A stretch of 47,218 bases of DNA from Emiliania huxleyi CCMP1516 (lineage: Eukaryota). The DNA lies in NCBI RefSeq assembly GCF_000372725.1, contig NW_005201259.1:353949-401166 (forward strand), written 5' to 3'. Both the position numbers and the translations under genes were made by a program. Shown here in pieces: positions 2,157-47,218 of this stretch (position 1 is the stretch's first letter; the number at the start of each line of letters is the position of its first letter). Under the pieces are notes generated by a model that was not told the origin of the DNA, did no database searches, and saw only the letters and a program-made list of their open reading frames with translations.

Positions 2157-3273
2157 ATGCTGCGGCCTAAGACTCCGAGGATTGGAATCGTCAGACTTGA
2201 TCAGCCGCGGACGGCAAAGACCGCGGTGCTTGGAGATCTGGTGGCACCACAGAGCCTACAGGGGGTGGCACCACAGAGCCTACAGGGGTCGGAGAGCTTG
2301 TCCCAAACGGATATCATCTACAGGAGAGCAGAAGGATACACGTTCTCCGTCTGCGTCTCTGGACACCCCGTGAACGCACCTGATCAGCTGCAGCTCACGC
2401 GGGGCGAGGTCAGGATCCGCGGGACTCAGGGCGATCCGCAGCACCTCTTTGAAGTCGGCGGCAACCAGCCGCCGCGTGCACGCAATCCCTCGTTCACTGA
2501 ACCATGGGTAGTGAATGGGCGCGCTGTGGGCGTCGTCTACATCTACCTGCCCGAGCTCATCCTTGCCAATCTCAAGCAAACTTTGGCCGAGCTTCGCGAG
2601 CTTGAGTGCCGGTGCCTCTCCTCTTCATGCGGATTCATGGCCAACATCAACTCTTTCTGCGCCGCGCGCTCCGGGATGCCGACACTGATGTCGACTCTCG
2701 ACCTGCTGCCGACTCTCTTGCTGTCGCTGCCCCCAGAGGACGTCATCCTCGTCCTTACCTCCAACGGCACGAACTTCAAGCGGCACGCGGAAACACTGAT
2801 TCCGCCACATGTCCCTCTGAAGAGACTTCGCGTCTGCGGGCTGGAGCAGGTGCGCGGATTCGGCGCAGAGGTTGCCTCAGGTACAACTGTGGACCCGTTG
2901 CTCGCAGAGGCTGGCATTGTCGGGGCGGTGGTGGAGGCCTTCACGGCCACAGCACCAAGCCCTATCGGTTTGTGCGCCCCAGCAGCTCGTGCTGCACAAA
3001 TCCTCCCCGCCATCCTTGCGTATCCCTCCTCCCAAAGGTGCGATTCTACTCGAGTGCACCGAGCTGCCAGGTGGAGGGTGGCCCTGGCCCCCTAGCCGTC
3101 CGATTCTCGCGGCCTTACTATTCGAATATGAGATCACAGGCTATTCGAACGCGCTGCGCCAGAAGTTCAATCTGCCCGTGTACGATGTGCTCACGCTCTG
3201 CTCGCTGCTCATCGCTTCCGTGGCCGTGAGCCCTACCCTAGGCGCACATGCCCACTTCGTGAACGAAATGTAA
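2157..3273 (+). CDS. Aspartate/glutamate racemase-family protein; exons 2157-2967, 3038-3070, 3140-3273
   Basis: Motifs IGIVRLD, GD, SSCGFM, PTLMSTL, VLTSN, VCGLE. Two GT-AG introns splice to give IGAILLECTELPGYSNALRQKFNLPVYD. The Cys pair (SCG / ECT) is typical of this fold. Confidence 0.8.
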
Positions 3274-40566: not shown

Positions 40567-41026
40567 CCCCCTCGCTCTCTCTTGCGAGCACTGACTGCAA
40601 GAAGAACTGGTAGGTAGGATTCCTACCTAGCGCGCTGGCTCGTGGCTGGATTCTGCAGCCGTTGTCGTCGCTGTTTAGTTACGCGCAGGCCCGGGGGCCC
40701 GAAGCGACTCGTGTGGATTTGTTGCATAGCATTCTCCCCACAGCACGAACCAGCCGCTGCCCAAGAAAGAAGATCGAGGCCTTGACTGGCCAGCGCGTCG
40801 TCGCTATAGCCTGGGATCCTGTGTGGCCACTGGGCGCGCATGCTCGAGGGCCGAGGCGGAGGACGTGGCGGCGATGGGAAGGCCTCTTCGCCGATCTCGG
40901 CGGTGGTTGTGTCCGAGGAGGCCACCGGCCAAAAGCGCATGTCTTGAAGGTCTGATACTGAGTACTCGAGTAGCTTTTAGTAACAAAGGCAAAGGCGTTT
41001 CTCACCGCGCGCGGGCCCCCGCCGCC

Positions 41027-42449
41027 ATGAATCCGGAGGACACCCTACCGCCCGACGTCACCTTCAGGCCGGTCACTGCCTACCCGGCCTTGACGGCTTG
41101 GCCGGACCGAGCCACGCTCTACGCCCTGACGAGCGCCAACACCGTCGCCACCGAGCCGCGCCGGCCGACGGTGATCCACATGTACGACAGCGGGTGAGGC
41201 GGGTGCCGCCCGTGCGCCGAGGCCATGGCTGCCTGGGCGCACGGCGGCAGCTACGGCGACCGCGTCCGCTTCCTCATGCTCTGCGTGGAGACGGGCGCGA
41301 GTGGCCTCCGCACGGCCAAGGCGTTTGGCAAGGAGTTTCGGCTGCCAGCGACGGTGGTGAACGGGTACATTGAGAGCAAGTCGGAGCTGCCGCGCTTCGG
41401 CCAGCTCGGCTGCGGCGGCTTTGTGGTCCTCGGTCGCCACGGAGAGTTTGTCGCCGCGCGAACCGTGCCTTCGTATCTGGACCGAGGCAGCTACCGCACC
41501 AGAGCTCCGCCCGAGCCGGCATCGGATCAGGCGAGTCTGGTGGCTGGATGTAGGCGCCCTGGCCTTCGCCGCGGTCGAGGCCCTCCTGGCCGGCCTCGGC
41601 GTCCAGAGGTCCACTCCCGCCACCGGCGGCGGCGGCGGCGGCAGTGAGGGCAAAGGCGGCGCCGCCGCTGCGCCGCTGCTGCTGGCCGCGGTCGCCCACG
41701 CGCAGATGGATCGCGAGCACGAGGGCCTCGCCGACGCGGCGGACGCCCTCCGGCAGCAGCGCAGCCTGGCGAGCCTACGCCGCCTCAGGCGCGGCGGAGA
41801 TGCGGCCGAGATGCGGCGAGATGCGGGGAGATGTGGCAGCCTGGCGAGCTCGAGATGCAGTTGAGGTGCAGCGGAGATGCGGCGAGGTGCGGCGAGGTGC
41901 GGGGACTGTGCCGAGCGCCTGTTCACAGCGTCGCTTCGCTCTCTCCCTCGCTGCTTCGCAGGCGGGAGTGGGCGGAGCACTGTGCGCACGAAGAGGCGCT
42001 CTTTGAGCAGCACGACTTTGCAGGCCACGGGAGCAGATCTCGGGTGAGCTCGGGTGAGCTCGGGCGATCTCGGCTGATCTCGCCGTGTCTCGCAGGCCAC
42101 CGCTCGAGAGGCGATCTCGCCGGCACCGCGTCGCACGTGAAGCACCACCGCGCGCTCCTGGCGAGCATGGACGCCGCCGTGCAGAGCTGCGAGGAGGGCG
42201 CCGAGTGCTCGCGGGGAGGCTGCTGTGCGCCCGGACTGGTCAGCGACGAATCGGTGCGTTCCGAGATCACCCGAGATGAGCCGAGATGAGCCGCGTTGCG
42301 GCGCACCTCTCCTTGCAGAGAGGGTGCTCGAGCACAGCGGGGGGCGGCGCCTCTTCAGCGGTGTGTGTGCACAGGTGCGCCGCATCCTCGGGGAGCTGCA
42401 GCAGCACGGCGACGTGTACGATGCCGCCTACGTAGGCAGGCTCGGCTAG
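41027..42449 (+). CDS. Selenoprotein: thioredoxin-like domain (UGGC) fused to hemerythrin domain; exons 41027-41486, 41554-41788, 41962-42023, 42096-42253, 42375-42449 (329 aa)
   Basis: In-frame TGA at 41195-41197 in VIHMYDSG-U-GGCRPC. Hemerythrin ligands MDREH, HCAHEE, HVKHH, HGDVYD. Exons total 990 nt in frame. SECIS in the 3'UTR. Confidence 0.88.
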
Positions 42450-42479
42450 CGGCGCTCGAGGCCGACCCCTCCCCTTCCT

Positions 42480-42550
42480 TCCGACGCAACACATGACCAC
42501 TAGTCGGACATCTCCCACTTTGCGGAGCCCGGCCGGTGTGAAGTCCTCAC
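42480..42550 (+). promoter_or_regulatory. SECIS element (form II)
   Basis: ATGAc (42493-42497) / tGAa (42539-42542) quartet; helix cactagtcgg:ccggccggtg (one mismatch); apical ACA; mini-stem ctcc:ggag. Confidence 0.8.
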
Positions 42551-42695
42551 GGGGCCACAAAGCCCTATGCCAACGCGTCGTTTCTCGTGTGGGGCTGGTT
42601 CGGAAAAAGTTTCGTTCTTAAAATATTTTTGAACAAAAAGAAAAATCCCTCCGTACCCGAACGACCATCGGAAGCAAAATGCGCCGCGACTTCAA

Positions 42696-44390
42696 GTGGC
42701 CTCGCCCGGCCGGAGCACAGCTGGCGGACGAACGGCGAGCCGCTGGCGCGACGAGCGGCGGCGCAACGAGCCATGGCTGCGAGGGAGAGACGAGCCGCGA
42801 GGGAGAGACGAGCCGCGAGGGCGCAACGAGCGTGAGCTGCCAAGACGACGGGATCGTCCGCCGCTGTCGCCTCGGTGGGCGCCTCCGCCGCCTCCGGGCG
42901 GTCCGTCGCCGCTGCCACCGCCGCGAAGGACAGGTGGTCCGCCGCAGTCGCCCTCACGCCGGCCAAATCCAGCAGTGCGCAGCGAGCCGCCCTCATCTGG
43001 CCGCTCTGCCGCCGGTGGTCAGCTCAACGCCAAGCAACTCACCGGCCTCATCTCTCGCATGCCCGCGACGCCGACGAGCTGCTCGGGCTCTTTGCTGCCC
43101 ACAGCACGAGCTTGGACCACATCCACGCTGCGAACCTGTGGAACAAACTGGGCCAGAAGTGCATCGAGCGGTGGCACGAGGAGCAGCTAGTGCGGCTGGC
43201 GAAGCGCACGCTCGACCTCGTCTCGTCGTCGTGCGAAGCACGTAACCTGGCGAACATCGCCCACGGCGTGGCAAAGTGCGGTCTGCAAACGAGGGCGGTG
43301 CACGCGCTGTACGCGGCGGTGGCGGAGGCGGCGGTGGGCGGCGGGCTGGCGGGCTTCAACCCTCAGGAGCTGGCTAACACTGTGTGGGCGTATGCGACGG
43401 CGGGCGTGGCTGCGGACGCGCTATTCGCGGCAGTGGCGGAGGTGGCGGTGCGGAGCAGGCTGGCTGGATTCAACCCTCAGAACCTGGCCAACACGGTGTG
43501 GGCGTTTGCAAAGACAGGCGTGGCTGCAGAGGCGCTGTACGCGGCGGTGGCGGAGGCGGTGGTGAGCGGCGGGATGGCCGGCTTCAACGCTCAAAACCTG
43601 GCCAACACGGTGTGGGCGTATGCGACAGCGGGCGTTGCTGCGGTCGCGCTGTACGCGGCGGTGGCGGAGGCGGCGGTGCGCAGCTGGCTGGCCGGCTTTA
43701 CGCCTCAGAACCTAGCCAACACTGTGTGGGCGTATGCGACAGCGGGCGTGGCTGCGGACGCGCTGTACGCGGCGGTGGCGGAGGCGGCGGTGGGCGGCGG
43801 GCTGGCTGGCTTTACGCCTCAGAACCTGGCCAACACGGTGTGGGCGTATGCGACAGCGGGCGTGGCTGCGGACGCGCTGTACGCGGCGGTGGCGGAGGCG
43901 GCGGTGGGCGGCGGGCTGGCTGGCTTTACGCCTCAGAACCTGGCCAACACGGTGTGGGCGTACGCGACGGCAGACCATTATCACCAGGCATTGCTTGCCG
44001 ACTGCTCGCGTGTGATCAGCGACTCGCTCGCGCGGGATCCGTCGCGGTGGAGCATCAAATCCCGCCATCAGCTGCACCAATGGCAGCTCTGGCTCTCCCT
44101 GAAGCAAGGGGCAGACGGGCAGCATCTTCTACCCGACTCCCAGCGCCAGCTTTGCTGCGACGCTATGCACGACACGCAAGTGACGATCTCAGGCTACCTT
44201 GCAGGTTGCAGCGCTCGGTTGCAGCTGCTCTCGCCGCCATCAAGCACGGCTTCGAGAACGAGTATCTCGAGCCGCTCACCGGCTACTCGCTCGACTTGGC
44301 GTGCCCTCCTCACGCATCGCGATCGAGGTGGATGGCCCGTCTCACTTCCTGCGGCCTGACGGCCAAGGTGTGCGCGCGCCCAACGCGCTG
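42696..44390 (+). pseudogene. OPR/FASTK-like helical-repeat + RAP-domain gene, frameshifted and 3'-truncated
   Basis: Six ~40-aa repeats FxPQNLANTVWAYATAGV; RAP motif GYSLD..RIAIEVDGPSHF. Frameshifts near 43053, 44195, 44300; RAP C-terminal half missing. Confidence 0.8.
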
Positions 44391-45861: not shown

Positions 45862-46345
45862 GATTGATTGATTGATGGGAAGGCGAAACACAGTCCGACC
45901 AACGACTGGGACACCAACGCGGTATGGGTGGACGCAGGACGGGCGATGACGGTCACACAGGAGCGACACACAGAACCACAAGACAAGACACTCAGCCAAA
46001 CTGACTGCCACACATCCTGAGCGAACTTCCCTAGTCACCCGCGGCCGGACTCCATCCGGCACGCGTCGCTGGGCGCTCAGAGCCGCGTCCCCTGCTCGCC
46101 ACCCCGCGACGCCCAAGGCGCCCGAGCGAACGACAGGCGGCACGCGAAGACTGGTTGCAATCCCGCCGACCGCCAGGCCGCGGGATGATGCGTGCGTGGT
46201 CTTGTAGTGGGTCTCGGAAGCTCTCCTCTCGGGCTAGGAGCCAGCCCCTCTCCCTTGCCCCCGGAACACTGTGTCCGAGTCGAGGCGTGTGCTTGCTGGT
46301 CGACGGCCGCGCGCGGTTGGCATTGTGACGAAGGTTGCGCGCGGC
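45862..46345 (-). mobile_element. Truncated retroposon with (ATCA)n tail inside a (TC)n tract
   Basis: Homologous to 12929-13329 and to the 32-nt stub at 13389-13420 (gactgtgttWcgccttccYatcaatcaatc). GA-rich repeats on both flanks. Confidence 0.7.
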
Positions 46346-46405
<60 letters not shown>

Positions 46406-46454
46406 AGAGAGAAAACCGGCGATTTCTTTCTTCATGCGACATTTTCCGCTGAAG

Positions 46455-47218
46455 ATGCAGCTCGCGTCCAGGCGAGGGCTGGCCACGCTGTTGCTCTTGG
46501 CGGGCGCGCTTCAGGCGAGGGCATTGCAGGCGGGGGCGTGGCCTGCGCCGGCGCCGCAGCGCAGCAGACGCGCTGGCGCACCGGTGCTGCAGCAGCCGCC
46601 TATTGGCGCGGAGCCGGGCAGCGGCGGTGCTGCAGCGGCAGAGCCGGCCGGGAGCAGCGTGGTGGCGCTGGCGCCGTCGCTGCCGCCGGCGCGGGGCCCA
46701 GCGTCGGGGGAGTGGCAGCTCGACTTCTACTCGCGCCCGGTGCAGGGCGCAGACGGCAAGAAGCTGTGGGAGCTGCTCGTGACGGACTCGGCCGGCAGCT
46801 TTTACCACGCCGAGGCGGTGCCGTCCAACTGCGTCAACTCGCGCGAGCTGCGCAAGCGGGTGCAGGCGCTCATCGACGCTTCTGCTGTCAAGCCGCGCGC
46901 CATCCGCTTCTTCCGCGCGCAGGCGAGACACGCAGCGAGACACGTCTGTCGGTCCGGAAGAGCGCTCTCGCTCACTCCACCTCGCTCGCGCCTCGCGCCT
47001 CGCCCCTCACCCTGTCCCTCGGCATCGCCCCTCGCCATTCGCCCCTCGACCCGGCCCTCAGCTGCTCAGCGCCTCCCCTCCCCTCTGCCCCTCCGCAGAT
47101 GAAGAACATGCTCTCCATCGCCCTCTCTGACTTGGGCGCGCGCACACCACAGCGGCCCTCCCTCCCTCCCATCCTCCCTCCCATCCTCCCTCCCATCCTC
47201 CCTCCCATCCTCCCTCCC
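46455..47218 (+). CDS. tab2: Tab2/ATAB2 plastid RNA-binding protein with bipartite targeting leader (partial; exons 46455-46922, 47099-47135, continues off window)
   Basis: EWQLDFYSRPV..DGKKLWELLVTD, VPSNCVNSRELR, PRAIRFFRAQ|MKNMLSIAL. Hydrophobic signal peptide followed by an Ala/Arg/Pro-rich transit-like region. Confidence 0.92.

What the first reader, a model, noticed from the sequence alone, without database searches (positions are those of the whole stretch)
41027..42449. Selenocysteine thioredoxin-hemerythrin fusion hidden by an in-frame UGA
Seen: the ORF track breaks at TGA 41195, but the frame continues as U-G-G-C-R-P-C at the Trx active-site position, giving overlapping UxxC and CxxC. 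A full di-iron hemerythrin ligand set follows, with a Cys-rich loop (CEEGAECSRGGCC). Inference: an O2/NO/iron-sensing domain coupled to a Sec redox switch. Hemerythrin-containing selenoproteins have, to my recollection, been noted in algal surveys, but I know of no established function.
Basis: partly seen in the sequence, partly recalled or inferred. Interest (0 to 1): 0.8.

Follow-up and report, generated by a model that had tools for sequence, protein, structure and literature searches.

The report
Selenocysteine thioredoxin-hemerythrin gene, catalogued family
This is a real, spliced algal gene whose internal stop codon is very likely read as selenocysteine, joining a thioredoxin-like domain to a hemerythrin domain predicted to hold two irons; an algal survey already lists such a protein, and its job, likely feeding electrons to the iron site to remove oxidants, is untested.

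Summary
Confirmed. The gene has five exons (329 aa). Contigs of RNA-like runs from five studies skip its introns but keep the UGA at 41195. UGA holds this position in 20 of 20 related loci, and a SECIS-like hairpin lies 44 nt past the stop, as in 11 of 12 homologs tested. The protein is 99-100% identical to two mis-annotated Emiliania huxleyi models. It matches the algal 'TlpA' selenoprotein with a hemerythrin domain that Jiang 2020 mention in one sentence, and this scan met the family four times on other DNA. All seven iron ligands are conserved. New here: the family lacks the thioredoxin cis-proline and has a near-invariant Cys beside that position (147 of 151), giving four conserved chalcogens (U57, C60, C63, C129). 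A Cys also replaces a conserved hydrophobic hemerythrin residue (70 of 81; in this gene Cys239 instead). Best reading: a tethered thiol-to-di-iron electron relay that removes oxidants (about 0.45). Rivals are a Sec/Cys metal or Fe-S site and an O2/NO sensor. One giant-virus bin contig carries a copy near IscU.

The parts
41027..41486 (+). Exon 1: start codon and most of the TlpA/ResA-type thioredoxin-fold domain
   Evidence: fold of homolog model
41195..41197 (+). In-frame TGA, codon 57, inferred selenocysteine; aligns with the first Cys of WCxxC
   Evidence: TGA in 20 of 20 related loci
41195..41215 (+). U-G-G-C-x-P-C motif (U57, C60, C63)
   Evidence: U, both Cys and Pro invariant in 18 of 18 codon rows with synonymous variation around them
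41399..41422 (+). GQLG-C-x-G-F motif; C129 (41411-41413) at the residue before the cis-proline site, which is Gly here
   Evidence: hhalign to a DsbE/CcmG-like protein; C in 147 of 151 rows, next residue S/N/Q/G/A/K
41487..41553 (+). Intron 1 (67 nt, GC-AG; ends ambiguous by 4 nt)
41554..41788 (+). Exon 2: end of Trx domain, Gly/Ala linker, hemerythrin helix A with H209 (41718-41720)
41789..41961 (+). Intron 2 (173 nt, GC-AG)
41962..42023 (+). Exon 3: H238 (41978-41980), C239, E242 (41990-41992)
42024..42095 (+). Intron 3 (72 nt, in frame, GC-AG; ends ambiguous by 9 nt)
42096..42253 (+). Exon 4: H266 (42134-42136), H270 (42146-42148), lineage-specific Cys-rich loop (42188-42226)
42254..42374 (+). 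Intron 4 (121 nt, GT-AG)
42375..42449 (+). Exon 5 coding part: H316 (42405-42407), D321 (42420-42422), TAG stop
42493..42542 (+). SECIS-like element, type II shape: AUGA core, 10-bp helix, UGAA; apical bulge AC rather than AA/CC
   Evidence: only hit of the strict pattern in the window, both strands; covered by spliced contigs; counterpart in 11 of 12 homolog 3' regions with compensatory pairs

Best explanation
This is a spliced five-exon gene for a thioredoxin-fold domain fused to a hemerythrin domain; its UGA is very likely decoded as selenocysteine through the 3' hairpin, and the protein likely works as a tethered electron relay that passes electrons from cell thiols through Sec57 and nearby cysteines to a predicted di-iron site that consumes O2-derived oxidants. 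Shown: gene structure, UGA retention and conservation, 3' hairpin conservation, ligand conservation. Predicted: both folds, U57 at the nucleophile position, C129 on the loop that faces it. Inferred: Sec insertion, iron binding, a selenolate nucleophile resolved by C60/C63/C129 in the manner of 2-Cys peroxiredoxins or deiodinases, and re-reduction of the iron site or of a thiol beside it (C239 here, C212-equivalent in most relatives). Identity as a selenoprotein of this family is about 0.95; the number below is for the mechanism.
For: Splicing with UGA retained. TGA in 20 of 20 loci that were picked by a motif 70 residues away; 127 of 151 database rows begin at the Met just after it. SECIS pattern in 12 of 13 3' regions (window included) vs 0.39 expected; first four helix pairs 55 of 56 paired with C-G/G-C and U-A/G-C/A-U swaps. 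Homolog model pLDDT 78.8 matches DsbE 3gl3 (Z 13.8, rmsd 2.4, 135 aligned), TlpA 1jfu (Z 11.5, 2.9, 141) and hemerythrin 4xpw (Z 13.9, 2.4, 120). All seven ligands canonical in 64 of 64 rows that cover them. Hemerythrin found in 81 of 95 relatives of 220 aa or more, so the pairing is kept. No cis-proline, which likely forms part of the substrate-peptide site (PMC2757866), argues against a plain protein-disulfide reductase. The hemerythrin motif's conserved hydrophobic residues (Bailly 2008 motif) are altered: H+3 Leu to Cys in 70 of 81, the Ile after the last His to Ala/Thr/Gly in 57 of 65, the Trp lost, which suits catalysis better than O2 carriage (inference). The one Cys-for-Sec homolog (P0061) also lacks the first His ligand.
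Against: No activity, metal or expression-response data. The linker is 9-247 residues and variable, and 14 of 95 long relatives have no detectable hemerythrin, 4 of them (plus one shorter) with a metallothionein-like tail instead, so the Trx domain can work without it. Thiol chemistry is two-electron while di-iron reduction usually goes by one-electron steps (recalled). Loss of the cis-proline plus four chalcogens fits a metal site equally well. The window's hairpin lacks the AA/CC apical motif required by SECISearch-type patterns, has no Rfam match and folds no better than shuffles (z -0.62 to 0.97). The SECIS pattern was tuned after seeing candidates and the loci are related.
Confidence: 0.45

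Rival explanations
1. Metal-site model: U57, C60, C63 and C129 bind a metal or an Fe-S cluster, and the protein would handle iron or pass single electrons between that centre and the di-iron site (iron or Fe-S repair or trafficking).
For: Four conserved chalcogens and no cis-proline; in human TRX1 loss of the cis-Pro suffices for [2Fe-2S] binding (PMC6210436 passage; PMC2757866). Sco copper chaperones score near the top of the fold list (6n5u Z 11.4). Metallothionein-like tails in 5 of 150 relatives, none with hemerythrin, and 3 or more Cys in 39 of 83 linkers. One copy lies two genes from an IscU/NifU_N gene (L031). RIC/YtfE pairs a Cys-motif domain with a di-iron domain for Fe-S repair (PMC9268430).
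Against: Distances between the four residues could not be measured. Sec in thioredoxin folds is normally a redox nucleophile (recalled). The IscU neighbour is a single case. RIC has a different ligand set (4 His, 2 Glu). Fold scores do not separate Sco from DsbE, Prx or deiodinase.
Confidence: 0.22
2. Sensor model: the di-iron site would sense O2, NO or iron and switch the Sec domain's reductase activity towards target proteins.
For: About a fourth of hemerythrins are domains of chimeric regulators (PMC2556348 abstract); DcrH sensor domain is a close fold match (2avk Z 13.4); ligand set complete.
Against: No cis-proline for binding substrate peptides; long variable linkers and pTM 0.61 give no sign of a fixed interface for allostery; hemerythrin absent from 14 of 95 long relatives; the proposed Cys-rich loop is not conserved.
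Confidence: 0.2
3. Small-molecule Sec enzyme of the deiodinase kind (for example a dehalogenase) with the hemerythrin as an accessory O2 buffer.
For: Best Foldseek hit is mouse deiodinase 2 (E 8.6e-4); DIO3 Z 12.2; deiodinases use Sec with a proximal and a distal Cys (PMC12025243); three loci have Cys directly before Sec.
Against: DsbE/ResA/TlpA score as well or better; sequence searches hit thioredoxins, never deiodinases; no Pfam deiodinase match in 19 aligned members.
Confidence: 0.08
4. The UGA is a true stop in this strain (weak SECIS), so only a truncated peptide or the downstream Met67 product is made.
For: Apical AC instead of AA/CC; no Rfam SECIS hit; database models start at Met67.
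Against: TGA invariant among variable synonymous codons; coding-like codon use upstream of the UGA; hairpin core and helix conserved, and the one variant in it (42530 C>T) keeps a G-U pair; E. huxleyi has 96 predicted selenoprotein genes.
Confidence: 0.05

Closest known systems
Algal 'TlpA' (thioredoxin-like protein) selenoprotein with a hemerythrin metal-binding domain, Jiang et al. 2020, BMC Genomics 21:699 (PMC7539508; passages read, supplement not readable)
   Same: Sec-containing Trx-like domain plus hemerythrin domain, in algae, mostly in Sec form (80% in that paper). E. huxleyi is among their genomes.
   Different: No sequence comparison was possible, so this very gene may or may not be in their list. 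The passages read give one sentence on O2 binding and nothing on motif, cis-proline loss, C129 or pocket Cys.
Bacterial TlpA/ResA/DsbE (CcmG) disulfide reductases (e.g. PDB 1jfu, 2f9s, 3gl3)
   Same: Same extended thioredoxin fold (Z 11.5-13.8); U57-x-x-C60 aligns with CxxC.
   Different: Sec for Cys; extra C63; cis-proline replaced by Gly/Ser/Asn/Gln with Cys before it; no evident membrane anchor in this protein; fused hemerythrin.
O2-binding hemerythrins: myohemerythrin (1a7d/2mhr), hemerythrin (1hmd), DcrH-Hr (2avk)
   Same: Four-helix bundle, profile match E 3.4e-6, H/HxxxE/HxxxH/HxxxxD spacing.
   Different: Conserved hydrophobic motif residues altered (Cys at the myohemerythrin Ile28 position in most relatives; Cys at the Phe55 position here; Ile after last His small; Trp lost); below the Pfam PF01814 cut-off (19.8 vs 25.3 bits).
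Iodothyronine deiodinases (Sec, Trx/Prx fold)
   Same: Sec at the helix N-terminus with proximal and distal Cys; close fold scores.
   Different: No sequence match; no hemerythrin in the structures matched; different motif.
RIC/YtfE repair-of-iron-centre proteins
   Same: N-terminal Cys-motif domain tethered to a di-iron four-helix bundle.
   Different: RIC has 4 His + 2 Glu and a left-handed bundle, and its N-domain is not a thioredoxin.

Membership tests
Eukaryotic selenoprotein | In-frame UGA kept in the spliced transcript | tested here: met
   (run type 'RNA' is the tool's guess; intron skips support it)
Eukaryotic selenoprotein | UGA conserved or aligned with Cys in homologs | tested here: met
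   TGA in 20 of 20 loci and in L031; Cys in P0061; aligns with thioredoxin Cys. Four database proteins show W there; for P0022 this is a TGA-as-Trp call, for the other three not tested
Eukaryotic selenoprotein | 3' SECIS core (RUGA..GA) on a helix of the right length | tested here: met
   core consensus from PMC3753652
Eukaryotic selenoprotein | Unpaired AA or CC 10-13 nt above the core | tested here: not met
   window has AC-A (rule); AA is present in 12 of the 13 homolog elements listed (by eye; L013 lacks it)
Eukaryotic selenoprotein | Sec actually incorporated; host Sec machinery | not testable with these tools
   no genome held; Jiang 2020 report 96 selenoprotein genes in E. huxleyi
Algal 'TlpA' selenoprotein (Jiang 2020) | Trx-like domain carrying Sec | tested here: met
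Algal 'TlpA' selenoprotein (Jiang 2020) | Hemerythrin metal-binding domain | tested here: met
Algal 'TlpA' selenoprotein (Jiang 2020) | Sequence homology to the catalogued members | not testable with these tools
   supplement too large to read; their database is not on hand
Bacterial TlpA/ResA/DsbE reductases | Extended thioredoxin fold with CxxC at the first helix | tested here: met
   (as UxxC; model is of homolog L003)
Bacterial TlpA/ResA/DsbE reductases | cis-Proline before strand 3 | tested here: not met
   Gly130 here; S/N/Q/G/A/K and no Pro listed among 151 rows
Bacterial TlpA/ResA/DsbE reductases | Membrane anchor, periplasmic location | not tested
   no predictor run; no hydrophobic N-terminus by eye
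O2-binding hemerythrin | Five His, one Glu, one Asp in canonical spacing | tested here: met
   motif from PMC2556348
O2-binding hemerythrin | Four-helix bundle | tested here: met
   (predicted)
O2-binding hemerythrin | Conserved hydrophobic motif residues (H-K-x-L, H-F, W-L-V, H-I) | tested here: not met
   L212 and L313 kept; Phe to C239, Trp to E312, Ile to G317; that these line the O2 pocket is recalled
O2-binding hemerythrin | Two irons bound, reversible O2 binding | not testable with these tools
   needs purified protein
Iodothyronine deiodinase | Deiodinase-specific fold and sequence match | tested here: inconclusive
   fold scores tied with DsbE/ResA/Prx; no sequence hit
RIC/YtfE | 4 His + 2 Glu di-iron site, ScdA N-domain | tested here: not met

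The most novel reading that the evidence does not exclude
A widespread plankton family in which a thioredoxin fold has traded its cis-proline for a fourth chalcogen and binds a metal or Fe-S centre through one Sec and three Cys, wired to a hemerythrin whose O2 pocket carries its own cysteine: a selenium-dependent iron/Fe-S handling enzyme with no described counterpart, also picked up, SECIS included, by a giant virus next to its IscU gene.
Probability: 0.2. Interest if true: 0.8.

Novelty: new member of a known kind. Interest (0 to 1): 0.45.

Why it matters
The family is large (418 clusters at 50% identity), almost always truncated by gene callers, and has no tested function. It links two trace elements that limit bloom-forming plankton, selenium and iron, in one protein. 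The conserved residues found here (U57, C60, C63, C129, pocket Cys) make the function directly testable by a few mutants. For E. huxleyi it corrects two wrong gene models. As an identification it is not new: the family is catalogued and this scan has met it four times before.

Tried and rejected
Rfam gave no SECIS match at E up to 10 and folding z-scores were not significant. First exon-boundary guess was 1 nt off, fixed. Pfam found nothing in the three unspliced pieces. Contig depth was not used. The protein atlas was not available for a UGA-read protein, so that look-alike search is missing. Prokaryote genome scan: 3 stretches, 1 passed, judged spurious (L021); its pattern fixed Gly at a position that is usually S/N/Q, so it is weak evidence of absence. 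The first structure model lacked the N-terminus and failed on the Trx domain. Alternative donor at the UGA rejected. A second Sec in this gene rejected: one internal TGA only. The reverse-strand SECIS-like hit is the same hairpin read backwards. Tree (98 rows, 98 columns, bootstrap not settled; rows under 220 aa without a tail domain or with under 45 residues before the motif left out) was used only to note that the window's clade has 12 rows and that the viral-bin copy and metallothionein-tail forms sit among hemerythrin fusions. No complex prediction was run. Paper searches found no functional study of this family; only PMC7539508 joins hemerythrin to an algal selenoprotein; subscription papers are not covered. 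PMC5866928 and PMC8165033 were not held.

Full report
Observation. The window has ATG at 41027 and TGA at 41195-41197, followed in frame by G-G-C-R-P-C. The frame does not run to 42449 unbroken. Removing four introns (67, 173, 72 and 121 nt; three GC-AG, one GT-AG) gives 329 residues and a TAG, with the UGA at codon 57 the only internal stop. Third-position GC is 0.91 before the UGA, 0.85 after it and 0.55-0.68 off frame, so both sides are coding-like.

Splicing. Contigs of 4 of 4 RNA-like runs from 4 studies skip all four introns at the predicted places, within 4-9 nt of repeat ambiguity; one 1110-nt contig (X6) runs from 41063 to 42605 fully spliced. A fifth study (X1) skips introns 1 and 2 in the shorter stretch laid, while 2 of 2 DNA-like runs span 41027-42030 unspliced. 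'RNA' is the tool's guess for these runs. The UGA lies within the unbroken exon-1 piece in each, with no other letter listed.

Source and annotation. The post-UGA protein is 99-100% identical over the matched parts to E. huxleyi CCMP1516 models EMIHUDRAFT_456109 and _467234, both starting at Met67 and both mis-spliced. I infer E. huxleyi or a very close relative.

Conservation of the UGA. A metagenome scan with the motif GQLGCGGF, 70 residues from the UGA, gave 132 stretches and 20 confirmed loci. All 20 have TGA at this site: 18 in frame, L020 with a frameshift elsewhere and L012 with a retained intron just after it (read by eye). Two are this same gene and four pairs are near duplicates. In 18 of 18 codon rows TGA, both Cys and the Pro are fixed while flanking Gly codons use all four synonyms. 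A profile search of 1.84 billion representatives gave 418 hits at E up to 0.001; I saw the best 150. 127 of 151 domain rows start at the Met just after the UGA. Only 5 span the site: four show W and one shows C. For P0022 the W is a TGA read as Trp, since two sister gene calls stop right before another of its W residues; the other three were not checked. The Cys form, P0061, has also lost its first His ligand.

SECIS. A strict pattern hits once in the whole window on both strands, at 42493-42542, 44 nt past the stop; looser versions give 5 and 3, or 9 and 7, hits on the two strands. The looser pattern hits the 250 nt after the stop in 12 of 13 loci (window included; L010 missed; L006 too short, L012, L016 and L020 left out for want of a clean stop) against 0.39 expected from shuffles, and the first four pairs are kept in 55 of 56 cells with swaps on both sides. 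The pattern was tuned after seeing candidates and the loci are related. Against: no Rfam match, ordinary folding energy, and AC where the rule asks AA or CC (PMC2375036 passage). Most homologs have AA, so this copy may be weak or missed by standard tools.

Thioredoxin domain. Profiles align U57 with the first Cys of WCGPC. A model of homolog L003 (pLDDT 78.8, pTM 0.61) matches DsbE, ResA, TlpA, Sco, Prx and deiodinase folds at Z 11-14 without separating them. Against a DsbE/CcmG-like protein, C129 aligns with the residue before the cis-proline and G130 with the proline (probability 91-95%). Across 151 rows C129 is Cys in 147 and the next residue is S 57, N 42, Q 28, G 18, A 2, K 1, with no Pro listed. 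The cis-proline is more conserved than CxxC in this fold class, likely binds substrate peptides and may prevent metal binding (PMC2757866); removing it lets human TRX1 take a [2Fe-2S] cluster (PMC6210436). The family thus keeps four chalcogens predicted to be near one another; I could not measure distances.

Hemerythrin domain. Profile match to myohemerythrin E 3.4e-6, fold Z 13.0-13.9, Pfam below cut-off for this protein. My own profile finds the domain in 83 of 150 hits and 81 of 95 of 220 aa or more; 64 of 64 rows covering all seven ligands are canonical. Against the canonical motif (PMC2556348) the H+3 hydrophobic residue (myohemerythrin Ile28) is Cys in 70 of 81 rows; the pair Cys212/Phe239 occurs in 66 of 77, while this gene's clade has Leu/Ile at 212 with Ser, Cys or Ala at 239 (7 of 77; 4 others). 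This is one clade, not independent events. That both positions line the O2 pocket is recalled. The linker is 9-247 residues, median 97.

How it likely works. Shown: structure of the gene, retention and conservation of UGA, hairpin, ligands. Inferred: SECIS-directed Sec insertion; selenolate U57 as nucleophile; C60, C63 and C129 as resolving or relay thiols, as in deiodinase where Sec is resolved by a proximal and then a distal Cys (PMC12025243); electrons passed to the tethered di-iron site or a thiol beside it, so that the pair consumes O2-derived oxidants or NO. I give this 0.45. A Sec/Cys metal or Fe-S site gets 0.22, helped by metallothionein-like tails in 5 relatives without hemerythrin and one copy near IscU. 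The sensor model gets 0.2, a deiodinase-like enzyme 0.08, a true stop 0.05.

What is known. Jiang et al. [quoted passage not shown] Ten paper searches found no functional study. Papers were seen as search listings and passages only: PMC7539508, PMC2397514, PMC13188914, PMC2757866, PMC6210436, PMC12025243, PMC9268430, PMC6627142, PMC3521657, PMC3753652, PMC2375036, PMC2556348. Four earlier notes of this scan describe the same family on other DNA and two mention a second Sec; this gene has none, but L017/L018 and the P0022 cluster have a second in-frame TGA in the linker.

Verdict. Real gene, very likely a selenoprotein, member of a catalogued but untested family. It works like a TlpA-fold redox domain but fails the cis-proline test for that family, and like a hemerythrin but with altered pocket residues. 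Interest 0.45; the metal-site reading would deserve 0.8 at a probability of 0.2.

Noticed in passing
L031:1986-2936 (L032 whole contig; IMG/VR giant-virus bin): Intronless 26%-GC copy with in-frame TGA (2133), U-G-G-C-W-P-C, hemerythrin ligands and a SECIS-like hairpin at 2966-3014, two genes from an IscU/NifU_N gene and before a subtilisin. One contig only; viral origin of the contig not verified. PMC3521657 found no SECIS in Mimivirus.
   Followed up: partly
window 41191-41228 (loose ends in runs X1, X6, X14): A second transcript matches only the 38 nt around the UGA and reads like a paralog of the other subfamily.
   Followed up: no
L017:2206, L018:1099, P0022 residue 178: Second in-frame TGA in the linker of some relatives, a likely second Sec.
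   Followed up: partly
L004:173, L009:233, L011:160: Cys directly before the Sec codon (C-U-G-G-C-x-P-C).
   Followed up: no
P0091, P0124, P0130, P0133, P0139: Relatives ending in a conserved metallothionein-like Cys-rich tail with no detected hemerythrin and no Pfam match in the five scanned.
   Followed up: partly
L014:1306-1401, L016:168-245, L019:24-113: Hydrophobic N-terminal extensions resembling targeting peptides in one subfamily; many relatives also carry an SH3-like insert (37 of 150 by a loose pattern) or a Trp-rich C-terminal domain (L004, L011, P0026).
   Followed up: no
L029:1501-1857 (G001): Bacterial redoxin with in-frame TGA in W-U-G-C, fitting the catalogued UGC-containing TlpA family.
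   Followed up: no
window 42836-44359 +: Downstream ORF of about 38-residue repeats matching DUF1601/FAST_1 (OPR/RAP-like).
   Followed up: no
window 46329-47102 +: Tab2/Atab2-like RNA-binding protein N-terminus, E 1.1e-16.
   Followed up: no
window 40910-40960: RNA-like contigs end at 40960 with an A-rich loose end, 57 nt before this gene's contigs begin; may be another transcript's end or a repeat.
   Followed up: no
window 41790-41910, 42036-42083, 42260-42293: Introns 2-4 hold GAGAT/GAGCTCGG-type repeats shared with many other contigs of the organism.
   Followed up: no
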